Shown: positions 11,324 to 50,491, numbered from the stretch's first letter. The stretch is DNA of 50,491 nt from Patellaria atrata CBS 101060 (GCA_010093705.1 MU006093.1:615557-666047); one strand, 5' to 3'. Program-made: numbers and translations. Notes: generated by a model from the sequence alone, not told the origin.

Positions 11324-11777
11324 CTGGAGCTGGAGGTCGCCAGTACCTCCAAGCTGGCCGAAGAGGGTAGAGAGATAATCAGCTTCTAGGGATGCTAGAT
11401 GTGTAAAACTTTGAGGTCGGAATTAGTCGAGCTAGGAGCGCGTATGCTCGAGACAGACCGGGGAGTCAAGATATTGGGATTGTGTGTGGCTAAGGTCGCA
11501 AACCCCCGGGCTTGTTCCGGACAGTCCACCTCCACACCATTGGACTGTCCGGATCTCTGGTGGAAGTAAAGGCGGTAAATACCCCTGGTAACATATTAAA
11601 GCTACTGTGTAAAAACATCGGCTATATCTCGTAATATACGAGAGTAAATAATATTATAGTAGCTCGTTTTTAATACTATCTTTGATAGAGATCTTTACGA
11701 GGGGGATTTTAAGGCGGAATTTTGAGAAAAAAATATAAAGAGATAAATGTAATATTATTTTTAAAAATAAATATAAT

Positions 11778-12047: not shown

Positions 12048-12413
12048 TGTAACTTCCAATCTTACAGTAAGATATATTGGTAAGATGGTAAGAAGAACTA
12101 ACGTGTTTCACCACTCAAGTGGCCACTTGAGTGGGGTGGCCACTTGAGTGGTGAGACACGTTTACGAAGAATCTAAATACATGTGTAAAGGAGCGTCGTT
12201 AAGTATTCCTTCTTCACAGTCCTGATTTCCTGTACTCGCTGCTCGTTGCTCGCTCGTCTGTCACTCCTCACCGAGCGTCAAGCACCGATCACTTTAGTTA
12301 CGTGACGCCCGTGGCACTGACTTTCTCCCATGACTGTGCCGAGTGGTCTCTTTCTCTCCCCCACTGAGGGCCCACTCGCCTACTGCATGTCTTTTACAAC
12401 TTGTGCCGTAACA
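12048..12413. repeat. Solo LTR-like repeat (related copy at 49029-49310)
   Basis: TGTAAC...GTAACA termini; about 90 bp, excluding the mini-element insertion, clearly similar to 49029-49120. Confidence 0.65.
12101..12161. mobile_element. 61-bp TIR-only Tc1/mariner (Fot1/pogo-type) mini element
   Basis: 26-bp TIRs ACGTGT(T/C)TCACCACTCAAGTGGCCAC with one mismatch; inserted at a TA that is empty in the paralogous repeat at about 49060. Confidence 0.8.
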
Positions 12414-12592: not shown

Positions 12593-12963
12593 CTTTATAA
12601 AATTAGCGTTGGCAGAATACTACTTGGTATACACAGTAAGTTTCGGATCAGTCCAGTGGTGTGGGGGCGGACTGTCCGGAACAAGCCCGGAAAACCCGAT
12701 CGTAAGCGCAATACCGGCGGGTGAGTGGAGGCTGATGAGGTCAAAACATCAGTATTAAGGTATCCCTAGCGAAGCCTACGTTTGTTTCAAGTTCGAGTTC
12801 AAGGGGAAATGGGAGTCGAGAATAATGCGTAGTGGCGACTCTTCCCAGTTCTCAGCGTACAGGTGAGGTGCAGGCAGAGTGATGTTGCGAAAACCAATCA
12901 CCACCCGATGGTGCGCCAAGACTTGGTACAGCCTTTCTCCTTTCTCTTGCTTGAATAGAACTA

Positions 12964-14825
12964 ACGTGGTCCACAAGCGAGCGGCGTATATAAGTGAGCG
13001 GCGCACTTTTCCACTCCACCATAACCTTCAAACTTAATTACATAGCTACAACCCGAGAAGATTAACTGCATTCAATTGAACTCTCTTCTTCAGACATTTC
13101 TTCGTCCTCCTAACAAGTTCGTATATTATGTCCAATCTTTCCGCACCTCCTACAACGCCGTGAATGCGATAATCCTTCCTCCACTGAACCCCCTTCCTCC
13201 AACTTCCTACCCGATTGTCGCCTAACAACCTCTTTCTAGGCAATCAATTCTTGTGCATCTTATACACTAAGTGCTCCTCCTGCTCGCACACGTGTTTTTT
13301 TGGCCCGTCGTCGCTTCGCAAGTGCCTTATTAGCCTGTCGAAGCGTTCGGACCTCGTCGCGTAGAAGTGTCATTTCATGAGCAATAAGCTCCGTACCCTT
13401 TGCTAACTACTTAACAGTAGAGAAAATAGTACTTGGAGAACTTCCTTGGTATCGGGCTATCCGATCCTTAACATGCTCAGACTGCGAAACAGCTTCTTTG
13501 GGGTTATTTGGTGTCTGAGAGACCCATGGGTCGGCAGCGGGGGGAAGGGCTCCGGCCGGTGTTGGCGTCCGTAGCTTCATATCAAGCTTTGAAATGACAG
13601 CTTAAGGGTCGTGAGGGACTAGGCCAGCGCCGAAGAAGCCCGCTTGGATATTTCCAATCGTCATAGTGTTGACGTGGGCGTCTTTTAACGCGATGAAGAA
13701 CTCGGTTTTGGTGATATAGTTAATATGGACTTTGATGAAGGCTTCGAGTTCCCGGCCGTACATCCGCTTCAGCACGCTGAAACATCCAACATCTAAAGGT
13801 TGGGTGAGGTGCGAAGAATGTGCAGGCAGGCAAACGGTGATAATGTTCTTTTCTTTGCAGAATTCCTCGAACTGAGCCGACAGATGGCTTGCATGACCGT
13901 CAAGAACAATCATCCGATAGACACCTTTCCGCCGGGCATCTATATGCTGGTGGAAATGCTGAATCCAGTCCATAGCCGTCTCTTTATCCGTCCAGCCGTT
14001 TGGCGAGGTCTTGATGACCCAGGAAGGCGGGAGACCGCATTCGGTGTACCAGGATGCGAGGTGGTTGACGCCTTGCACAACCAAGAAAGGAAGCAGCACA
14101 AAACCGTCGCTGCTCACACACTCGATTGCCGTGGCCCATTCGCGATTGCCAGGTTGAAGTTGTTTGCCTCTACCACGCCTGTCGGCACGCGTGACAACCA
14201 TGCCGCTGCAGATAACGCCCATCATGAAGCCTGTTTCGTCGAAGTTGTAAAGATCGGCATCTTAGATCGCGTATTTCGCGCGCATGTTAGCTACCAGACG
14301 GAACCACGCGTTTATCGCGTCCGGATCTTCGCAAAGAGCTCTCTAGAAGTCGTAGGCACGAGAAAAACGCTTTTTCAGCTCTGGTCGTCGCTTGACGAAG
14401 TTCTCCGCCCAATGCTTCCTGACGCGTCCCGCGACGCGCTCCGCGAGGAGCAGATTGGCCATCTCTTCCACATTAGCCAGCCGGGACGGAAACCCTCGCG
14501 CATCTAGGTCTAGAATATATTGGACGACCACCTCTTCTTCGGTTTCTGTCAACTTTTGAGAATTAGGGCGATAGTCGCGCTTGGGAGTTCGGCCGTTTAT
14601 TCTCGCGCGGAGGGTAGTTTCGGAGACGTTGTAGATCGCTGCGGCTTTCCGACGGCTGAGTTTTTTGTTGCGTTCGAGAGCTTGGATGGCAAGGACAATT
14701 TGACTTTCGTTTGACTGCGTAGGCATTGTTGGTTGTGGAGAAATGCGTTATTATAGAAGAAAAAGTTATGATACGTGGAAAAGTGCGCCGCTCGCTTGTA
14801 TACGCCGCTCGCTTATGGACCACGT
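12964..14825 (-). mobile_element. Full-length Fot1/pogo-family (Tc1/mariner) DNA transposon, 1862 bp
   Basis: 51-bp TIRs (12964-13014 and 14775-14825) beginning ACGTGGTCCA, with three C/T mismatches; TA target duplication at 12962-63 and 14826-27. Confidence 0.97.
13062..14726 (-). pseudogene. DDE transposase (HTH_psq / CENP-B HTH / DDE_1, C-terminal CCHC) inactivated by RIP-type stops
   Basis: Single 555-codon frame with NFDETGF, VLDGHASH, HLTQPLDVGCF and CRRCGKIGHNIRTC; about seven in-frame TAG/TAA stops (e.g. 14343, 14262, 13602). Confidence 0.95.
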
Positions 14826-15325
14826 TACGGTTGTTCATTAATTTACCTTAGTACCTCTTGTACCATTGACAATGGTTAGTATATGACCATTACATTTAGG
14901 TTCTTTACTTTGTTACAATAGCCAGTTCAAGGTCACTGTACTGTACTGTACGCTCGCTGTACGGTATATAATATGGTATATTACCACAATGCTCGACCTC
15001 AACGCTTGCCCGGAGAATCTCAAAATCATAACCGTACAGGCAAGTTAAAAAGACTTCAAAGGAATGACACTGATTGCCACGCTCTTCACCATAGGATACA
15101 AGTAAGAGATGGATTCCATGGTCAAGTGGCAGCCGGGTATCTCTCTTTTGATTGTATACCTCGAAATTCTATAGTCCGTATCACAGGAGACATGAAAGAG
15201 ACACCGAACAACAAAAGCAAGAATTAGCAACTCAATAAGATAAACCTTTGCTCAGCTGGAAAGAAGGCTCTTTGCAATGAGAAGAGAACGGACACATTCA
15301 ACCACAGAGTTAGGATACTCCAACC

Positions 15326-15560
15326 TCAATGCACCCCTGGATATCCTTGAGCCTGGACACAACGATTATAGTCTGCGGTGCAGACGAAATCGAGTCCACA
15401 TCTCGGATTCCCGCAAAGATTTCCCGTACCGCCGGTGCTATACCCTCCACTTGGTTGAGCCATATAGATGCTTCCGCCATAATTGTTATAGCCGGAATTG
15501 CTTGCGATGTAACCTCCTTGATCGTACGGGTAATTATCTGCACCATTCTCTTCATGATGG

Positions 15561-15598
<38 letters not shown>

Positions 15599-16057
15599 GG
15601 GCTCTTCCCCTTCCTCTTCTTCATCATCATCCCCATGATGATGGTGGTGATGCTTCTTATGATGAGAATGGTGGCTCTCCTCATTATCAGAGTCCGCTCC
15701 ATCGTCTTCATTTTTGTTCTTGTGGTGGGAATGAGAATTAGACTCTCCGTCGGAATCATCTACCTTGTTGGTGTTATGCTTCTGAGTCTTCTTTCCGGGG
15801 GTTACATCAGAACTTTTCTTCTTTGAGTGTTTGTCATCCGAGTTCTTTGAAGTGATCTTCTTGGGATGTTTGTCATCATTTGTATGATTTGTGCCTTTAT
15901 CGTTGGTTTTGTTTCCGGATTTCTTGTTTGTTTTAGGTGGACTTGCTCCTCCATACTCAATTGCATTCAACGGATCAGCGTAATCATATGGCTCCGGTCC
16001 GGTGTAGGTAGGTGCGGGAGTGATATAGGCATTGTACAGGTCATATCCGTTACCCAT
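15326..16057 (-). CDS. Orphan His-rich low-complexity protein with a C-terminal 4-Cys motif
   Basis: About 243-aa frame from ATG 16057; Lys-rich, then His/acidic blocks (H6 and H15), a G/Y/N-rich segment and CGNPRCGLDFVCTADYNRC. Confidence 0.6.
15554..15598. repeat. (ATG/CAT)n microsatellite encoding His15
   Basis: 15 trinucleotide units, one of them a variant. Confidence 0.95.
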
Positions 16058-17338: not shown

Positions 17339-19084
17339 ATGGATATCTATGGCACAGCGGTAACCGCCGTTGACCAAGTCATTAAAGTGACCATCTTTAT
17401 CAAAGGCGTGATTGATGATATAGAAGCATTCGAGGATGACCGCCAAAGTCTCCATTTGAAACTCAACCTTCAACTCACCACGTTGGAGTTTTTCCGCCGA
17501 AGATTCCTTGATAAAGAACATGGACTCATGCTCCCCGGATATCTTCCTGAATGGGTAATTGACACCATATGCGAACTGCTTCTGAAAATGAGCGAGGTAC
17601 TCGCAGGGTACCAACTACTTATGCACAAGTACGATGTGCTAGATGACCACAAAGAACCTACCGAGTCCCAAAATGAGACCACTTCCGAAAGAGAGAAATG
17701 GAAACAGTCATTTCTGGAGCGGGCGAAGTCAAAACTGAAAACACTGAAACTCAAAGGTTATGACTGGGCGATCTTTGATAAGAAACATTTTCTCGGCGTT
17801 CTAGATGAGTATAAGGGACACACTGATAGTCTAAGGGATATTATGCAGCATTTCTCGCAGGAAGCTGTCTATTCGCTCATGGCAAATAAACACACGCCAA
17901 CCACGGATACTGTTAGTCTGGAAGGTACTGGCTTAGGACCAGTCTTTAAACGACAAAAGCTTATTACGGCGCATGCACCGGAGGACTTCCAGGAGCTTGA
18001 AGGGGAGATAAAGGAGGATGGAGTACCATCGAATCGATTCCAATTAGCTCATTGGACGCACGAAAATGGAGAGCAGCAACTAACGCAAACTGTGGTTGTG
18101 GAGTATCATGAATATGATCGTCGGTTACGGCGGGATGATCTGGATTCTGACGAGATTGCTGAGCTGAAAGCCCCCATGAAGAACTTAGCCTGGCTTTTAC
18201 AGAATTCTACCTTCACTGAAGGGGACGAAGATCCCGATCAGTCAGAGCAGCCTACGATCTTCTCTCTCCAGTGTTTAGGATATAAGGACCAGGTGGACAA
18301 TCATCGAGCCGTATTCATTTACAGATTGCCTCTCCGTGATCAATTCACAAGCGGGACAGATGCCAGAGAAAGTCTTGTTACATTACATGACTGGATTAAC
18401 CGGGTTGACAGCAAGACTAAACGGTCTCTCAAGCCCTCCCTTGGTGATAGATTTTCCATTGCTCACTCTCTAGCGCTAACGGTTTTGAATGTCCACGGAT
18501 CTCTGTGGGTCCATAAAAATATCTGGAGTAGGGGTATTCTACTTTTTCAAAAGGACAAGAAGGGCATCTATACCTTGAACATGAATGGTAAAACGACTGT
18601 CTCCGAACCTATCGAATCAAGAAACGCGACAAGCCCACGAATGCTTGCTTTCCTTGCTGATTGGGGATACGCCAGACCCTTTGAGGGAGCCACAGAGATG
18701 AGGAGCGACTTCGACATCGAACCTAATCTCTACCGACATCCTGAACGACAAGGTGTACCAACAAGACAATTTGCTCGTCGACATGACATCTATGCTTTAG
18801 GAGTGGTTCTACTAGAAATCGGTCTATGGCATACAGTCTCTCAGATATTTGCTAGCAAGGTCAAGGCTGCACAACAAATCGGAAACCTGCCAAAACCGAA
18901 GGAAGTTCTCGCAACTTTGATTTCACTTGCACAAGGGGAATTGCCTAAGGAGATGGGAGCTGGGTATTCAGCTGCGGTTCTTGCTTGCTTGAAGGGAGAT
19001 TTTCGCAAGGCTAGTGACATGGAACTGTCATTGGACTTTCGGAAAAAGGTTATTGATGTGACTACTTTGGGAATGAAACTGTAG
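17339..19084 (+). CDS. HeLo (prion-inhibition) domain plus C-terminal pseudokinase
   Basis: Amphipathic N-terminal helix and WAIFDKKHF..L...TDSL HeLo-type motif; kinase-like C-lobe LADWGYARP, YRHPERQ, HDIYALGVVLLEIGLW; catalytic loop HKNIWSRG lacks the HRD Asp and the conserved Asn; intronless, 581 aa. Confidence 0.85.
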   Translation: MDIYGTAVTAVDQVIKVTIFIKGVIDDIEAFEDDRQSLHLKLNLQLTTLEFFRRRFLDKEHGLMLPGYLPEWVIDTICELLLKMSEVLAGYQLLMHKYDVLDDHKEPTESQNETTSEREKWKQSFLERAKSKLKTLKLKGYDWAIFDKKHFLGVLDEYKGHTDSLRDIMQHFSQEAVYSLMANKHTPTTDTVSLEGTGLGPVFKRQKLITAHAPEDFQELEGEIKEDGVPSNRFQLAHWTHENGEQQLTQTVVVEYHEYDRRLRRDDLDSDEIAELKAPMKNLAWLLQNSTFTEGDEDPDQSEQPTIFSLQCLGYKDQVDNHRAVFIYRLPLRDQFTSGTDARESLVTLHDWINRVDSKTKRSLKPSLGDRFSIAHSLALTVLNVHGSLWVHKNIWSRGILLFQKDKKGIYTLNMNGKTTVSEPIESRNATSPRMLAFLADWGYARPFEGATEMRSDFDIEPNLYRHPERQGVPTRQFARRHDIYALGVVLLEIGLWHTVSQIFASKVKAAQQIGNLPKPKEVLATLISLAQGELPKEMGAGYSAAVLACLKGDFRKASDMELSLDFRKKVIDVTTLGMKL

Positions 19085-19798
19085 ATTAACCATCTATAAT
19101 CTCATGGGGAATTTGCCTCATCTTTCACAGTCCTTTGTCCAATACGTATAAAGACAATTATGCAGTCGCTCCTAAAAGTGCTCACTAACCTTCTTGACTA
19201 CCCTATACTATAAGGATGATGCTTCGTACGGTTTCCTTCGCCTTATTCATTCGTAGACAGACACGATAGTCGATAATTTTTATCTTCTCATATTCTTTTG
19301 TGCTACGAAAATTTCTTCACAAAATCATATACCTCCATCATCTTATATGACGCTCAAAATCGTGCAAGCAACAAGCAGTAGCGCTTTAGGTCTCAGCTGA
19401 ACTTGTAGCTCTACAACTGAAGCTCCCTTGCCCTTGGCTGCATCTCGCTATCTTGACCGGTCAGATGCGTGTTTTCACATCCGGAGAGCCCGCATAATGC
19501 AGGGCCGAAAGCGGAATGAGATCCGAGGCAAGAATTTAAAGAGACCTGTAACTCCGCCACAGCAACACATTCTGGGCATCCACAAACAACATTAGCCGTA
19601 TCTGAGAGCTGATGGTTCTCCTCACTACTTCTTGCCATTCTTCCCCAGACTCGATTCGGCGAACCGAGTTGTTAAGTTGGGAACTTAATTGACACGATTG
19701 AAAACAAAGGGTTTATTGTTTTTGCTGGGACAGTCAGGACTGTATCCATCCTACCAAACACCATAGTCCTTTGTCATCTCTGCCAACACTCCGCAGGA

Positions 19799-22114
19799 AT
19801 GTCTTTCTCCTCAGACTTGCTCGACGTGGAGGGCATAAGTACTTTATCTATTGATTATGGCTTGTCTCATGGGTTAATTTCTTACATGGAAGGTGAGTAT
19901 GTAGAGTATTCTGCCGCTACGACTACCAAGGGAAGCATAAAACCTGCAGAGGACTCTCCATATAACTTTCTTTCTCTTTTAGCAACTGCTCAAAAGAAGA
20001 AGATTGATTTCCTCCCTATCACATGGGATGGGTCACTCAATGAAAGTGGCGGGCAGGCCAGTATCAGCCAGTCATTTCTGAGCGAGAAGTTGAGTTATGT
20101 CTTCAAGCGCATTCGAAGAGACTTTCGATTCCCTGCTGAAGAGATCATTGCCCTTAGAGCTATAATATCGGAGATCGTTATTCTAGCCCATCCAGAAATT
20201 AGAGGTCATCCAAATATCGTTCGGTTGGTTGGAATATGTTGGGATATAAGTTCTAGAAATAAGTCGATCTGGCCAGTCCTAGTATTTCAAAAGGCCAAAT
20301 ATGGAGACCTGAAGGCGTTCGTAGAATCAACGCAAGGAAAGCGTCTTAGCTTTGAAGAGCGGTTGAAATTTTGCAAGGAAATTGCAGCAGCAATTACACT
20401 TATGCATTCAAAAGGTATGCCTGTGAACCTGCTGAGCTGCACCTTTTATTGATTGGATCTCTATCTCCAGACATTGTTCATGGTGATGTCAAGCCGCAGA
20501 ATGTGTTGGTCTTTGCAGAGGAAGATGGAAACTACTGTGCGAAGGTAACCGACTTTGGATATTCAACACTTCATGCGAGTAAATCGACCGACGACCGGGA
20601 GATAAATCTGCCAATTTCACGGCCATGGAATGCCCCCGAAACTGAAGAAGGTTCCTGGGATACCGCATTTTCACTCGAGGAAGCGAAGCTAACGGACGTT
20701 TACTCGTTTGGTTTACTCTGCATGTGGCTCTTGTTCCACGGGCCGTTACGAAATATGCAACAAATTGCTCTGTTGAGGGAAAAGGAAGAACTTACCGGCT
20801 TTATTGATGATAATGTATCCCAAGTAGCGGACCTGAGTGACGAACAGAAGTCCAGTCTTCTAGCTTTCTTCCATTCTACACTTGAAAGAGATCCTAAACA
20901 TCGGTCATTAGACTTAAAGGACGCAATGAAAGGGTTTGCTTCATTTATGTGAGTCAAGTTAAACAACTAATTTTTTTTGCTAAGGAACGTAAGCTGATTA
21001 ATCAGTGTCCCACCACTCGAAAATGATGGGTTTAGTACGTATGAGATGTACATGCCATATCTCGGTGTGCTCCCGCACCATAAAGACTTCGACCACATGA
21101 AAGCTCAAGAAGAACACTATGGGGATATGTGGGATAAGGGTCCTCAGGCTGACAGCGGCTGGGGTGGTTATTACGCAATGTATTTCTCTCCACAAGTACT
21201 ACCTAGGGAGGACACGATTGCCAAATATTTTCAGGTACTAAAATGCATCATGTCCTAGCTCAGTGGGAGTTTTATAACTAATACTCTAGCAGGTTGCCAG
21301 AAGCTATAATCAATTGATGCGGGGGGACTTTCGGCTGTGGAATTATATATTCTGTCTTCTTAAAACAAAGGCAGAGTCATCTTCAGATAAGTTCTTCGCG
21401 TTCCAAGTAGCCTTCTGTAACCGAGTCGGGTTTGGCACGCCAATTAATGGGTCTAAAGCTTTGGAATGGCTGAACCGCAGTGGTAGGGGAGTGGAAGATC
21501 TAGAAAAAGAGGTCGAGTTAGTGAAGACAGATCTGAATCCCATGTTGTATAAAAACCTCGAGACAGAGGTCAAACCCATTACTTGGGTTGAGTATTATCA
21601 ACTTTCGGAAAAGCTTCCTGAGGTGCAGGAAGTGTACGAAACTGCAGCGAGAATCGCAGGAGAGACGTTCGGTCCTACGCATCCGACGTCTGTGTATCTG
21701 ACCAATGTTACGATTTCCATTCTGCTCGGCAAGGGTGAGTATCAGGAAGCGTTTTCGAATGCTGATAGGCTCCAGAAATTGTGCGATGTGCTATTAGGAC
21801 CGGAAGATCGGAATACAGTAGCGGTATCGTCATATAAGGATACAGCGGCTGAGCATCTTGGGCTTTCGGAGGTTGGGACTTCTATATCAGAGGCCGCAGC
21901 AGAGGAGGACAAACCAGAGGCTTCAACTGCAGTTGCTCCCTCAAACGACGAAATCAACGAAGGGTGGTCAGTAGTATCGCCCTTTGGTTTCATTAGAGCG
22001 TTTAATATTCTGACTTGAGAAAGGTCGCGGGCTTACTACGGGTTTCCTCCTAAAAAGCAATCGTCTAAGTCCAGCACTCCATCTTCTGGGTACGGGTATT
22101 ATGGATATATGTAG
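19799..22114 (+). CDS. Ser/Thr protein kinase plus SEL1-like repeat plus kinesin-light-chain-type TPRs
   Basis: VFKR lysine, HPNIVRL, HGDVKPQN, DFG, WNAPE and DVYSFG; SEL1-like AFQVAFC..VGFGT....KALEW; TPR-like FGPTHPT and LGPEDRNT; predicted introns 20415-20470, 20949-21005, 21235-21292 and 21967-22023. Confidence 0.85.
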
Positions 22115-22443: not shown

Positions 22444-22616
22444 TGTCACGGGTTAGACCTGATAGGTATAAGTGCCTTGGATGATCCAGCGGCTTAGTCA
22501 TACTGTGCTTTAGTAGAACAGCATATGCTATCTCAACACTTTCTTTCCTTAAGTTTAAGCTTCATGTACATATAGCAATATACCTTTCAGCTTCCATCTG
22601 AGGTTGAGCCATGACA
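22444..22616. repeat. Solo LTR (same family as 49974-50252)
   Basis: TGTCACGGGTT...GAGCCATGACA; high identity to the copy at 49974-50252; flanks CCAAG/GGAAT do not match. Confidence 0.85.
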
Positions 22617-22773
22617 GGAATAATCCACTAATCGGTGCAGTAGCAGCGGACAACTTGGCTATCGTTAAATGTTTGGTTGAAAAGGGGGCTAACATCAACG
22701 CGGAGGACGAATAAGGGGCCACTCCACGATCATGGGTTAGTGACTTGGGTCTTCTTGATATACTCGATTATTG
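22617..22773 (+). pseudogene. Ankyrin-repeat gene remnant
   Basis: From 22619 reads NNPLIGAVAADNLAIVKCLVEKGANINAEDE*GATPRSW...GLLDILDY*; 5' part cut off exactly at the LTR end. Confidence 0.75.
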
Positions 22774-49973: not shown

Positions 49974-50252
49974 TGTCACGGGTTAGACCCGATAGGTATA
50001 AGTGCCTTGGATGATCTAGCGGCTTAGCTATGCTATACTTAATAGAACAGCTTACGCTGTTCTGCCACTTTCTCTTACTTTCTTTCCTTAATTTTAAGCT
50101 CCATGCATGATCCAGTAGCTTAGTCATGTTGTACTTTAATAGAACAGCTCACGCTGTTCTGATACTCTCTTTTACTTTCTTTCCTTAAGTTTAAGCTTCA
50201 TGTACATACAGCAATATACCTTTCAGCTCTCATCTGAGGTTGAGCCTTGACA
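49974..50252. mobile_element. Solo LTR with 5-bp TSD and an internal tandem duplication of about 96 bp
   Basis: TG...CA termini; CCATT at 49969-49973 and 50253-50257; duplicated unit at about 50010-50105 and 50106-50202. Confidence 0.92.
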
Positions 50253-50491
50253 CCATTGATTTAGAGTCGCAACCGATGATATTACGTATGGATGTTGGGG
50301 GCCGAGAATCTGTTTCCCTAGCTGGGAGCATTGTCTCATTAATAAAATAGCATCGTCCTTACGGCCTTGAACCTGAAACGTAAATGCGAGGTTATTCATG
50401 CTGGTCAGCATGTCTGGATGCTCTTCCCCAAGCACCCTCTTTCTCGTCTCCATCACTTGCACCTCCAGCTCTTCGGCCTCCTTCCATCGCC
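50223..50491 (-). CDS. 3' end of a TPR-repeat (kinesin-light-chain type) gene, probably an NB-ARC/NACHT-TPR NLR-like protein; partial
   Basis: GRWKEAEELEVQVMETRKRVLGEEHPDMLTSMNNLA consensus; frame runs off the window end. Confidence 0.85.
   Translation of the reverse strand, partial: RWKEAEELEVQVMETRKRVLGEEHPDMLTSMNNLAFTFQVQGRKDDAILLMRQCSQLGKQILGPQHPYVISSVATLNQWCQGSTSDES

What the first reader, a model, noticed from the sequence alone, without database searches (positions are those of the whole stretch)
17339..22114. Candidate fungal necroptosis-like module: HeLo-pseudokinase beside an active kinase-SEL1-TPR sensor
Seen: two intact co-oriented genes about 0.7 kb apart. Gene 1 has an N-terminal HeLo-type helical domain and a kinase fold with degraded catalytic residues (Glu where the beta-3 Lys is expected, VVVEY; HKNIWSRG for HRDxKxxN; DWG). 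Gene 2 keeps Lys, HGDVKPQN, DFG and APE, and ends in SEL1/TPR repeats of the kind used as fungal NLR sensors, but has no NTPase domain. Known: the HeLo domain of HET-S is a membrane-disrupting death domain, and the related HeLo-like family is homologous to the MLKL four-helix bundle. MLKL is a bundle plus pseudokinase activated by RIPK3 phosphorylation. Inference: the TPR kinase senses a cue and phosphorylates the adjacent pseudokinase to release HeLo, giving an NLR- and amyloid-independent two-gene cell-death or allorecognition switch.
Basis: partly seen in the sequence, partly recalled or inferred. Interest (0 to 1): 0.85.

Follow-up and report, generated by a model that had tools for sequence, protein, structure and literature searches.

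The report
Fungal MLKL-like killer gene with partner kinase
Two neighbouring fungal genes, a HET-S-type membrane-attack domain fused to a dead kinase and an intact kinase beside it, form a gene pair that recurs in many fungi and looks like a fungal counterpart of the animal RIPK3-MLKL cell-death switch, though no activity has been tested.

Summary
Gene 1 (17339-19084, one exon, 581 aa) has a HeLo domain above Pfam's cut-off and a kinase fold. It lacks the beta-3 Lys, the catalytic Asp (HKN for HRD) and the Asn. Gene 2 (19799-22114, five exons, 695 aa) keeps every catalytic residue. Only the "SEL1/TPR" tail is overstated: there is no SEL1 hit, and one sub-threshold TPR unit remains where longer relatives carry full arrays.

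New here: the pairing recurs.
Three have consecutive locus tags and one pair shares a 9.2-kb contig.
- Of 20 distinct metagenome loci with at least 5 kb on both sides, 13 have a related kinase within 5 kb, mostly head-to-head.
- All 25 neighbour kinases keep HGDxKxxN and DFG. None of 61 HeLo-linked kinase-like domains keeps the catalytic Asp.

The wider family's pseudokinase domain finds MLKL as its best solved relative (E 6e-12). It often carries MLKL's GFE motif, and it has a conserved activation-loop Ser/Thr aligning with mouse MLKL S347.

The best reading is a kinase-controlled HeLo executioner that works without an NLR or amyloid. Phosphorylation, binding and killing are untested. This window's kinase has lost most of its repeats. 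I found no description of the pairing in the searched literature.

The parts
17339..19084 (+). Gene 1: HeLo + pseudokinase protein, 581 aa, single exon (P0001)
   Evidence: ORF. Identical to P0001. 291 relatives at E<=0.001 among 8000 scored candidates, and the best 120 are colinear.
17339..17893 (+). HeLo domain (residues 1-185), all-helical, with a highly conserved N-terminal helix
   Evidence: Pfam HeLo 29.1 bits against a cut-off of 23.2. The N-terminal profile A4 hits the HET-S/HET-s N-terminal domain 2wvq/2wvo at E 3e-14. Helices at 3-27, 35-56, 71-97, 115-134 and 148-185 in a model of pLDDT 75. Residues 1-30 have mean conservation 0.79 against 0.64 overall.
18005..19081 (+). Kinase-fold domain without catalytic residues (residues 223-581; Pfam DUF7580)
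   Evidence: Foldseek hits to kinase domains. HHalign to the gene 2 kinase at 91% probability, E 1e-6. DUF7580 31.6 bits.
18092..18106 (+). Beta-3 strand VVVEY: invariant Glu255 and no Lys anywhere in residues 246-260
   Evidence: Invariant E255. Strand 246-258 in the model.
18512..18535 (+). Catalytic-loop remnant HKNIWSRG (HRD Asp replaced by Asn394, Lys by Trp, Asn by Gly)
   Evidence: H392, K393, N394 and I395 are invariant in 24 sequences. They align onto HGDVKPQN of gene 2.
18659..18754 (+). DWG motif, activation loop with invariant Thr452 (18692-18694), and YRHP motif
   Evidence: The most conserved segment of the protein, 0.80. Ser/Thr at this position in 60 of 65 distinct related loci. 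It aligns with S347 of mouse MLKL in the family profile alignment.
19085..19798 (.). Intergenic spacer, 714 bp, between the two co-oriented genes
19799..22114 (+). Gene 2: active-type protein kinase with conserved middle domain and TPR remnant, 695 aa. Exons 19799-20414, 20471-20948, 21006-21234, 21293-21966, 22024-22114.
   Evidence: The spliced translation equals P0121. The last intron is annotated but has no RNA or homologue support.
20081..20907 (+). Kinase domain (residues 95-351, spans intron 1) with K103, E125, HGDVKPQN, DFG and APE
   Evidence: Pkinase 87.2 bits. These residues are invariant in 20 family members.
21593..21691 (+). Single sub-threshold TPR_12 unit (residues 542-574), homologous to the first TPR of longer relatives
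   Evidence: TPR_12 17.8 bits against a cut-off of 30.1. Alignment A2. The family profile hits kinesin light chain TPRs at E 4e-40.
22568..22765 (+). Ankyrin-repeat relic with an in-frame stop, about 450 bp downstream of gene 2. It may be the remains of a lost C-terminal repeat array.
   Evidence: tblastn to the C-terminal ANK of P0147, a kinase+TPR+ANK member of the gene 2 family, E 8e-4. ORF listing.

Best explanation
The two genes form one functional module of a widespread fungal family.

Gene 1 is an MLKL-like executioner. It has a HET-S-type HeLo domain whose N-terminal helix would attack the membrane. A catalytically dead, MLKL-related kinase-fold domain would hold it in check.

Gene 2 is the cognate upstream kinase. 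In the family at large it carries C-terminal ankyrin or TPR repeats that would act as the input or sensor part.

On activation, the kinase would phosphorylate the conserved Ser/Thr of the pseudokinase activation loop (Thr452 here). This would release the HeLo domain to oligomerise and permeabilise the membrane, giving regulated cell death without an NLR or an amyloid relay.

Shown: domain identities, the active or dead state of the catalytic residues, recurrent linkage, co-diversification, likeness to MLKL, and the conserved loop Ser/Thr.

Inferred: binding, phosphorylation, release, killing and the biological trigger.

In this particular window the kinase has lost nearly all its repeats, so its input may differ or be reduced.
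For: (1) Identity of the parts.
- HeLo is above the Pfam cut-off. HET-S/HET-s is the best solved hit for the N-terminal profile, at E 3e-14.
- Kinase fold.
- In gene 1 the catalytic Asp, Lys and Asn are replaced, invariantly in 24 relatives.
- Gene 2 has all catalytic residues, invariant in 20 relatives.

- Consecutive locus tags in Trichoderma viride (ACHAQJ_003099/003100 and ACHAO4_005319/005320) and Penicillium sp. (N7535_002318/002317).
- The same contig in T. arundinaceum (106,501 bp), T. evansii, T. ceciliae, T. austrokoningii, Fusarium tjaetaba (9,253 bp) and one unnamed contig (12,180 bp).

(3) Linkage in metagenome contigs.
- 80 loci collapse to 67 distinct groups.
- A related kinase lies within 5 kb in 13 of the 20 groups that have at least 5 kb on both sides.
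- There are 22 kinase hits in 334,384 bp within 5 kb, against 3 in 194,526 bp further out.
- A 14th locus, L005, has two kinase-ankyrin ORFs that the tblastn criterion missed.
- Of the 25 neighbours, 21 lie upstream on the opposite strand.

(4) The live-and-dead pattern is general.
- 25 of 25 neighbours keep HGDxKxxN and DFG.
- 0 of 61 aligned HeLo-linked domains keep the catalytic Asp.

(5) HeLo lies upstream of the pseudokinase in 21 of 45 loci above the Pfam cut-off, and in 6 more just below it.

(6) Likeness to MLKL.
- A profile of 21 family pseudokinase domains finds MLKL in its ten best PDB rows (4m68 at E 6e-12).
- 29 of 67 groups have GFE at the DFG position. PMC6013482 (passages read) gives GFE as the MLKL orthologues' motif.

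(7) Activation loop.
- Ser/Thr occurs 11 residues after the DFG-equivalent in 60 of 65 groups.
- In one search it aligns to the second Ser of the SIS triplet of mouse MLKL. S345 is a RIPK3 site (PMC6013482, passages read). S345 and S347 are both named in the abstract of bioRxiv 10.64898/2026.06.10.731390 (search listing only).

(8) The N-terminal helix (0.79) and the activation loop (0.80) are the most conserved parts of gene 1, against 0.64 overall.

(9) Partner distances correlate: Mantel r 0.82 over 35 pairs, 0 of 2000 permutations as high, and the same nearest neighbour in 20 of 35.
Against: - No experiment or expression data exist for either gene.
- The window's own subfamily is atypical of MLKL. 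It has DWG rather than GFE, no beta-3 Lys (MLKL keeps its VAIK Lys), and its profile hits MLKL only at E 0.62, behind IRAK4 at 0.006.
- The kinase is not RIPK-like. Its best solved kinase matches are generic (phosphorylase kinase, a plant kinase, Roco4, CDK6, ZAK), and no RIPK is among the 60 rows shown. It has no RHIM-like tetrad.
- The presumed sensor repeats are nearly absent here and in Trichoderma.
- Structural comparison of the N-terminal model is not discriminating. Foldseek gave nothing at E<=0.001. VIA-align gave MLKL Z 7.5 and HET-S Z 7.4 among many unrelated helical bundles of equal or higher Z.
- 6 of the 20 long-flank loci show no kinase by the tblastn criterion. Of the five I looked at further, only L005 has clear kinase-ankyrin ORFs by Pfam; in L056, L028, L068 and L078 no kinase was found. 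The sixth, L010, has its kinase at 5.5 kb.
- The Mantel correlation is inflated by shared ancestry.
- The DNA search patterns included the HKNI motif, which biases the sample towards dead catalytic loops.
Confidence: 0.55

Rival explanations
1. The pair is functional, but the logic is different. The pseudokinase could be an allosteric activator, scaffold or membrane anchor for the neighbouring kinase, as in other pseudokinase-kinase pairs. Or it could be a decoy or guardee that the repeat-bearing kinase monitors. In this reading the HeLo domain serves localisation or signalling rather than killing on phosphorylation.
For: - Linkage and co-diversification show coupling but not its direction.
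- The kinase domain resembles plant immune kinases or pseudokinases such as RKS1 as much as any other.
- The sensor repeats can be lost while the pair is kept, as in Patellaria and Trichoderma.
Against: - The executioner-type features are the best conserved: the N-terminal helix and an activation-loop Ser/Thr at the MLKL phosphosite position.
- HeLo of HET-S is an established membrane-targeting death domain (PMC12881547, passages read).
Confidence: 0.2
2. In this genome the module is a decaying remnant. Gene 2 has lost its repeat array and the pair is no longer regulated or used, whatever the family does elsewhere.
For: - Only one sub-threshold TPR unit remains.
- An ankyrin relic with an in-frame stop lies 450 bp downstream, next to a very high-copy repeat.
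- A DDE transposon lies 2.5 kb upstream of gene 1.
- The C-terminal exon of gene 2 found no longer relative except itself.
Against: - Both reading frames are intact, with canonical introns.
- All family-invariant residues are kept in both proteins.
- Six Trichoderma copies share the short form and keep the linkage, which suggests a working short variant.
Confidence: 0.15
3. The pair is an allorecognition (heterokaryon incompatibility) system. Mismatched alleles of kinase and executioner would trigger death on cell fusion, as with het-Q1/het-Q2.
For: - Fungal death effectors and their activators are often encoded in two-gene clusters, and several are het loci (PMC12881547, passages read).
- The kinase partner diverges faster than the executioner. 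Between Patellaria and Penicillium the kinase is 28% identical and gene 1 is 49% identical.
Against: - Gene 1 is well conserved across fungal classes, with mean column identity 61% in 24 sequences.
- No allele data could be obtained.
Confidence: 0.1
4. The two genes are neighbours by chance and have unrelated roles.
For: Both belong to very large families. Gene 1's profile finds 4633 clusters at 50% identity at E<=0.001.
Against: Recurrent adjacency in nine other genome records and in most long-flank metagenome loci, with a fixed live/dead pattern and correlated divergence.
Confidence: 0.03

Closest known systems
Animal MLKL with its activating kinase RIPK3 (necroptosis)
   Same: - An N-terminal helical-bundle executioner fused to a dead kinase domain.
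- MLKL is the best solved match for the wider fungal family's pseudokinase, and many members have GFE in place of DFG.
- A conserved activation-loop Ser/Thr at the aligned phosphosite position.
- A separate active kinase as the presumed activator.
   Different: - The bundle is of the HET-S HeLo type by sequence.
- This window's protein has DWG rather than GFE and lacks the beta-3 Lys that MLKL keeps.
- The partner kinase is not RIPK-like, has no RHIM and carries ankyrin or TPR repeats.
- The two genes are adjacent in the genome.
- No function has been tested.
HET-S / NWD2 and related fungal HeLo or HELL effector plus NLR clusters (amyloid signalling)
   Same: - A HeLo death domain with a conserved N-terminal helix.
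- Effector and presumed activator are encoded side by side.
- The repeat types (ANK, TPR) are the same as in fungal NLR sensors.
   Different: - The effector has no C-terminal amyloid motif; a pseudokinase stands in its place.
- The partner has a kinase domain where an NLR has a NACHT or NB-ARC NTPase.
- Signal transfer would be by phosphorylation, not by amyloid templating.
Plant MLKLs (HeLo-type bundle plus pseudokinase; Mahdi et al. 2020, cited in PMC12881547)
   Same: The architecture: helical bundle plus pseudokinase, outside animals.
   Different: - To my knowledge (recalled, not checked here) no adjacent activating kinase gene has been described for the plant proteins.
- The plant proteins were not compared here beyond a weak PDB row (6ka4).
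Fungal gasdermin HET-Q1 with its protease HET-Q2 and related gasdermin-protease clusters
   Same: - A two-gene cluster of a pore-forming executioner and an enzyme that would activate it by post-translational modification.
- The activators often carry WD40, TPR or ANK repeats (PMC12881547, passages read).
   Different: The executioner fold is HeLo rather than gasdermin, and the chemistry would be phosphorylation rather than cleavage.

Membership tests
HeLo domain (Pfam PF14479, HET-S type) | Match to the family model above its curated cut-off | tested here: met
   29.1 bits against 23.2, residues 18-183
HeLo domain (Pfam PF14479, HET-S type) | Sequence relationship to the solved HET-S/HET-s N-terminal domain | tested here: met
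   A1 profile to 2wvo, E 0.0019. N-terminal profile A4 to 2wvq/2wvo/2wvn, E 3e-14 to 9e-14 over positions 5-174.
HeLo domain (Pfam PF14479, HET-S type) | Helical-bundle fold like HET-S or the MLKL four-helix bundle | tested here: inconclusive
   The model is all-helical. Foldseek gave no match at E<=0.001, with HET-s at rank 27. VIA-align gave MLKL 4btf Z 7.5 and HET-S 2wvo Z 7.4, but unrelated bundles score as high.
HeLo domain (Pfam PF14479, HET-S type) | Membrane targeting and permeabilisation by the N-terminal helix | not testable with these tools
   Only conservation of residues 1-30 was seen: 0.79 against 0.64 overall
MLKL-type pseudokinase | Protein kinase fold | tested here: met
   Foldseek hits to TYK2, JAK1, ALK, IRAK4 and KSR1 at E about 1e-7. 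HHalign to the gene 2 kinase at 91% probability.
MLKL-type pseudokinase | Loss of the catalytic Asp of HRD | tested here: met
   HKN, with N394 invariant. 0 of 61 relatives keep the Asp.
MLKL-type pseudokinase | GFE in place of DFG | tested here: not met
   The window's protein and its close subfamily have DWG. GFE occurs in 29 of 67 more distant groups.
MLKL-type pseudokinase | MLKL is the nearest solved relative | tested here: inconclusive
   Own subfamily profile: MLKL E 0.62, IRAK4 0.006. Profile of distant family members: MLKL fills the ten best rows, E 6e-12.
MLKL-type pseudokinase | Retained beta-3 Lys (VAIK) for nucleotide binding | tested here: not met
   No Lys in residues 246-260, and Glu255 is invariant
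MLKL-type pseudokinase | Activation-loop residue phosphorylated by an upstream kinase | not testable with these tools
   A conserved Ser/Thr is present (60 of 65). Phosphorylation is unknown.
RIPK3 / RIP kinases (for gene 2) | Intact catalytic motifs | tested here: met
   K103, E125, HGDVKPQN, DFG and APE
RIPK3 / RIP kinases (for gene 2) | RHIM motif | tested here: not met
   No [IV]Q[IVLC]G tetrad in P0121, P0180, P0128 or P0122. The pattern was written from memory.
RIPK3 / RIP kinases (for gene 2) | Closest solved kinases are RIP kinases | tested here: inconclusive
   The best rows are phosphorylase kinase, TYK2, RKS1, a plant kinase, Roco4, CDK6 and ZAK. No RIPK is among the 60 rows shown out of 439 and 635 matches.
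TPR repeat proteins (TPR_10/TPR_12, kinesin-light-chain type) | Repeat array matching the family models | tested here: inconclusive
   Window copy: TPR_12 at 17.8 bits against a cut-off of 30.1, one unit. Longer family members: clear arrays, with kinesin light chain 5fjy at E 4e-40.
SEL1 repeats | Match to the SEL1 model | tested here: not met
   No SEL1 row at E<=10 in the Pfam scan of P0121. HMMER's filters may drop very weak matches.
Fungal NLR (STAND) receptors | Central NACHT or NB-ARC NTPase domain | tested here: not met
   No such Pfam hit and no Walker A pattern in either protein

The most novel reading that the evidence does not exclude
The kinase-to-MLKL-type-executioner axis is not an animal invention. 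Ascomycete fungi would carry a large, old family of two-gene modules. In each, a repeat-bearing (ankyrin or TPR) active kinase acts as an NLR-independent sensor and switches on a HeLo-pseudokinase killer by phosphorylating its activation loop. This would be a third kind of fungal cell-death cluster, beside the amyloid/NLR and protease/gasdermin kinds, and a direct fungal counterpart of RIPK3-MLKL.
Probability: 0.4. Interest if true: 0.9.

Novelty: new variant of a known kind. Interest (0 to 1): 0.8.

Why it matters
Fungal HeLo/HELL domains are accepted relatives of the MLKL four-helix bundle. However, the known fungal ways of switching them on are amyloid templating from NLRs or fusion into NLRs. 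A 2025 review notes in one sentence that some HELL domains sit on kinase or pseudokinase proteins, and it asks for broader study (PMC12881547, passages read).

A conserved, genomically linked active kinase would supply the missing upstream component. That would make the question 'is necroptosis-like kinase signalling ancient or convergent?' directly testable with two genes.

It would also define repeat-bearing kinases as a class of fungal intracellular sensors that work without an NTPase.

The family is large: 3309 clusters at 50% identity at E<=1e-10. It is present in Aspergillus, Penicillium, Trichoderma, Fusarium and Onygenales, so genetics is feasible.

Tried and rejected
- Complex prediction of the two kinase-fold domains (gene 1 residues 200-581 with gene 2 residues 50-400): no verdict, score 0.00, and the alignments were not used. 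I draw no conclusion from it.
- RNA evidence: no RNA holder was listed. The two runs found are DNA contigs that contain the introns. Expression and the last intron of gene 2 therefore remain untested.
- The window's own genome is not held, so paralogues in this genome could not be counted.
- Cluster look-up for accession numbers of the named pairs: the database was switched off.
- Foldseek on the N-terminal model gave nothing at E<=0.001. VIA-align gave many helical bundles of similar Z. Fold-level likeness to the MLKL four-helix bundle is therefore neither shown nor excluded.
- The whole-protein Foldseek list did not have MLKL among the 50 rows shown.
- The search with gene 2's last large exon among longer proteins found only itself.
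- Earlier findings of this scan: nothing by place, sequence or words.
- Literature: ten full-text searches and passages from PMC12881547, PMC10197012, PMC9815663 and its preprint, PMC11476962, PMC12258605 and PMC6013482. None describes a HeLo-pseudokinase gene linked to a kinase-ankyrin or kinase-TPR gene. 'DUF7580' occurs in no held paper. Subscription journals are not covered, so prior description cannot be excluded. PMC4815980 is not held.
- SEL1 reading of the AFQxAFCxxxGFG motif: the motif is conserved (Q479, C483, G487, F488 and G489 are invariant), but it matches no Pfam repeat model. I treat it as part of an unnamed middle domain.

Full report
WHAT IS THERE

The window is fungal. A tool row names the source of gene 2 as Patellaria atrata CBS 101060.

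Gene 1 is a single open frame at 17339-19084 on the + strand, 581 aa. It is identical to database protein P0001.

Gene 2 starts 714 bp downstream on the same strand. Five exons (19799-20414, 20471-20948, 21006-21234, 21293-21966, 22024-22114), joined across four GT-AG introns of 56-58 nt, give exactly the annotated 695-aa 'kinase-like protein' P0121. The last intron has no independent support. If it is retained, the frame stops at 22018 and gives 682 aa.

GENE 1

Pfam gives:
- HeLo: PF14479, 29.1 bits, cut-off 23.2, residues 18-183.
- DUF7580: PF24476, 31.6 bits, cut-off 27.
- Pkinase: 13.8 bits only, below its cut-off.

An AlphaFold model (pLDDT 69, pTM 0.68) shows long N-terminal helices followed by a two-lobed domain. 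Foldseek matches that domain to protein kinases (TYK2, JAK1, ALK, IRAK4, KSR1; E about 1e-7, TM about 0.6 on the target).

Profile-profile alignment with the gene 2 family (91% probability, E 1e-6) gives this mapping:
- HKNIWSRG (392-399) falls on HGDVKPQN. The catalytic Asp is Asn, the loop Lys is Trp and the Mg-binding Asn is Gly.
- DWG (441-443) falls on DFG.
- HPE falls on APE.

No lysine occurs anywhere in the beta-3 strand (246-260), where Glu255 is invariant. These substitutions are invariant in 24 relatives from Eurotiomycetes, Sordariomycetes and a lichen fungus. This is therefore a long-standing pseudokinase, not a decayed gene.

The N-terminal domain is of the HET-S type:
- The family profile hits the solved HET-S domain at E 0.002.
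- A profile of N-terminal domains from the wider family hits it at E 3e-14 over nearly its whole length.

Fold comparison of an N-terminal model (pLDDT 75) did not discriminate:
- Foldseek found nothing at E<=0.001.
- VIA-align placed MLKL (Z 7.5) and HET-S (Z 7.4) among many other helical bundles.

GENE 2

Pfam gives Pkinase at 87.2 bits, residues 95-351. K103, E125, HGDVKPQN, DFG and APE are present and invariant in 20 relatives. There is no NTPase hit, no Walker A pattern and no RHIM-like tetrad.

There is no SEL1 hit, and there is one TPR_12 unit at 17.8 bits against a cut-off of 30.1.

Relatives of 800-920 aa (Xylaria, Fusarium, Orbiliomycetes) carry full kinesin-light-chain-type TPR arrays. 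The Patellaria and six Trichoderma proteins stop after one or two units.

About 450 bp beyond the stop, next to a very high-copy repeat (22444-22600), lies an ankyrin-repeat relic with an in-frame stop. It matches the C-terminal ankyrins of a kinase+TPR+ANK family member. The repeat array of this copy therefore seems to have been lost.

A conserved middle region (about 352-530, with the invariant pattern Q-x3-C-x3-GFG) matches no known model.

IS THE PAIRING MORE THAN CHANCE?

Comparing the two homologue lists gives nine further pairs in genome records (eight named, one unnamed) on the same contig.
- Three have consecutive locus tags: T. viride ACHAQJ_003099/003100, T. viride ACHAO4_005319/005320, and Penicillium sp. 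N7535_002318/002317.
- Fusarium tjaetaba has both genes on a 9,253-bp contig, and an unnamed record has both on 12,180 bp.

Metagenome contigs. A DNA-pattern scan with the gene 1 family gave 80 loci, which collapse to 67 distinct groups at 95% identity.
- By tblastn with the kinase parts of P0121 and P0180 (E<1e-8), 25 groups have a kinase neighbour.
- Among the 20 groups with at least 5 kb on both sides, 13 have one within 5 kb.
- Hits are 22 per 334 kb within 5 kb against 3 per 195 kb further out.
- One 'negative', L005, has two kinase-ankyrin ORFs by Pfam. L056 has ankyrin and SH3 ORFs. In L028, L068 and L078 nothing was found.
- Orientation: 21 of 25 neighbours lie upstream on the opposite strand, with roughly 0.1-0.8 kb between ORF limits. 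Two are convergent. One is downstream and co-oriented, as in this window. One is 7.4 kb away.

Nature of the neighbours.
- Kinase plus ankyrin repeats in 19 of 24 loci scanned, and none with TPR.
- All 25 keep HGDxKxxN and DFG.
- None of the 61 gene-1-like domains with an aligned catalytic loop has the Asp. Instead they read HKS 23, HKN 15, HQG 7, HES 6 and others. One of the two search patterns contained HKNI, which biases this count.
- Upstream ORFs carry HeLo above the Pfam cut-off in 21 of 45 loci, and just below it in 6 more.
- Distances between pseudokinases and between their partner kinases correlate (Mantel r 0.82, 35 pairs, 0 of 2000 permutations as high; same nearest neighbour in 20 of 35). 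Shared ancestry inflates such figures.

LIKENESS TO MLKL

- A profile of 21 pseudokinase domains from the more distant loci finds MLKL in its ten best PDB rows. Mouse 4m68/4m69 scores E 6e-12 and human 6o5z/7mon scores 2e-7, ahead of LIMK1 and IRAK4.
- 29 of 67 groups carry GFE at the DFG position. PMC6013482 (passages read) describes GFE as the motif of MLKL orthologues.
- The activation loop has a fixed length. It has Ser/Thr eleven residues after the DFG-equivalent in 60 of 65 groups, and this is Thr452 in the window's protein.
- In the alignment this residue pairs with the second Ser of 'SIS' in mouse MLKL. S345 is the RIPK3 site according to PMC6013482. S345 and S347 are both named in a 2026 preprint abstract, which I saw as a search listing only.
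- Within gene 1's own subfamily, the N-terminal helix and the DWG-to-YRHP stretch are the most conserved segments (0.79 and 0.80 against 0.64 overall).

The window's subfamily is the less MLKL-like branch. It has DWG rather than GFE, it has no beta-3 Lys, and its own profile reaches MLKL only at E 0.62.

The partner kinase is not specifically RIPK-like.

HOW IT MOST LIKELY WORKS

A repeat-bearing kinase receives an input and phosphorylates the activation-loop Ser/Thr of the adjacent HeLo-pseudokinase. This frees the HeLo domain to insert its N-terminal helix into the membrane.

Everything after 'the genes are linked, one is live, one is dead, and the dead one resembles MLKL' is inference. The complex prediction gave no verdict and no RNA data were found.

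Rivals are:
- a reversed or scaffold logic;
- local decay of this copy;
- an allorecognition role;
- chance, which the linkage data contradict.

CONTEXT AND SIZE

The pair sits among ordinary genes (hydrolase, TLC-domain, Tfb5, Obg GTPase, SDR and RRM proteins). A DDE transposon with 53-nt inverted repeats lies 2.5 kb upstream.

The gene 1 profile finds 4633 clusters at 50% identity at E<=0.001, 3309 at 1e-10 and 312 at 1e-30.

NOVELTY

The architecture 'HELL/HeLo plus kinase or pseudokinase' is mentioned in one sentence of a 2025 review (PMC12881547). 'Fungal MLKL homologues' are mentioned in PMC11476962.

In ten full-text searches and the passages read, I found no account of a linked active kinase with ankyrin or TPR repeats. 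Journals outside the library are not covered.

I rate it a new variant of a known kind, with interest 0.8.

Noticed in passing
window 22568-22765 (+): Ankyrin-repeat relic with an in-frame stop, about 450 bp after gene 2. It matches the C-terminal ankyrins of a kinase+TPR+ANK relative (P0147) at E 8e-4.
   Followed up: partly
window 22444-22600: Very high-copy repeat. Summed contig depth is about 88,755 against 326 for the flanking single-copy DNA, and many contigs end here.
   Followed up: no
window 12962-14827: DDE_1 transposase fragment (13605-14261, minus strand; 104.5 bits) bounded by 53-nt inverted repeats at 12962-13014 and 14775-14827. It is a Tc1/pogo-like element 2.5 kb upstream of gene 1.
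   Followed up: partly
window 50232-50489 (-): Tail of a kinesin-light-chain-type TPR protein (the repeat type of fungal NLRs), cut by the window end.
   Followed up: no
window 15326-16057 (-): ORF of 243 aa with long His and Asp/Glu runs and no Pfam hit, between the transposon and gene 1.
   Followed up: no
window 18101-18103 and 18167-18169 (gene 1 Glu255 and Lys277): Glu255 in beta-3 and Lys277 in the predicted C-helix are both invariant. This could be a charge-reversed version of the usual Lys-Glu kinase salt bridge. The model coordinates could not be inspected.
   Followed up: no
L014:8502-8951 (+): Weak caspase-domain (Peptidase_C14) hit, 20.6 bits against a cut-off of 21.4, in an ORF between a kinase-ankyrin gene and its HeLo-pseudokinase partner.
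   Followed up: no
L005:3633-9043 (-) and L005:15924-16865 (-); L056:16784-17698 (+): One locus has two kinase-ankyrin ORFs in tandem beside the pseudokinase gene, and a SLATT_fungal ORF downstream. Another locus has a NACHT-type ORF about 6 kb away.
   Followed up: no
window 11506-11547 / 12649-12690 and 12100-12162: Two further inverted-repeat pairs (42 nt at 93% and 27 nt at 96%) just upstream of the transposon.
   Followed up: no
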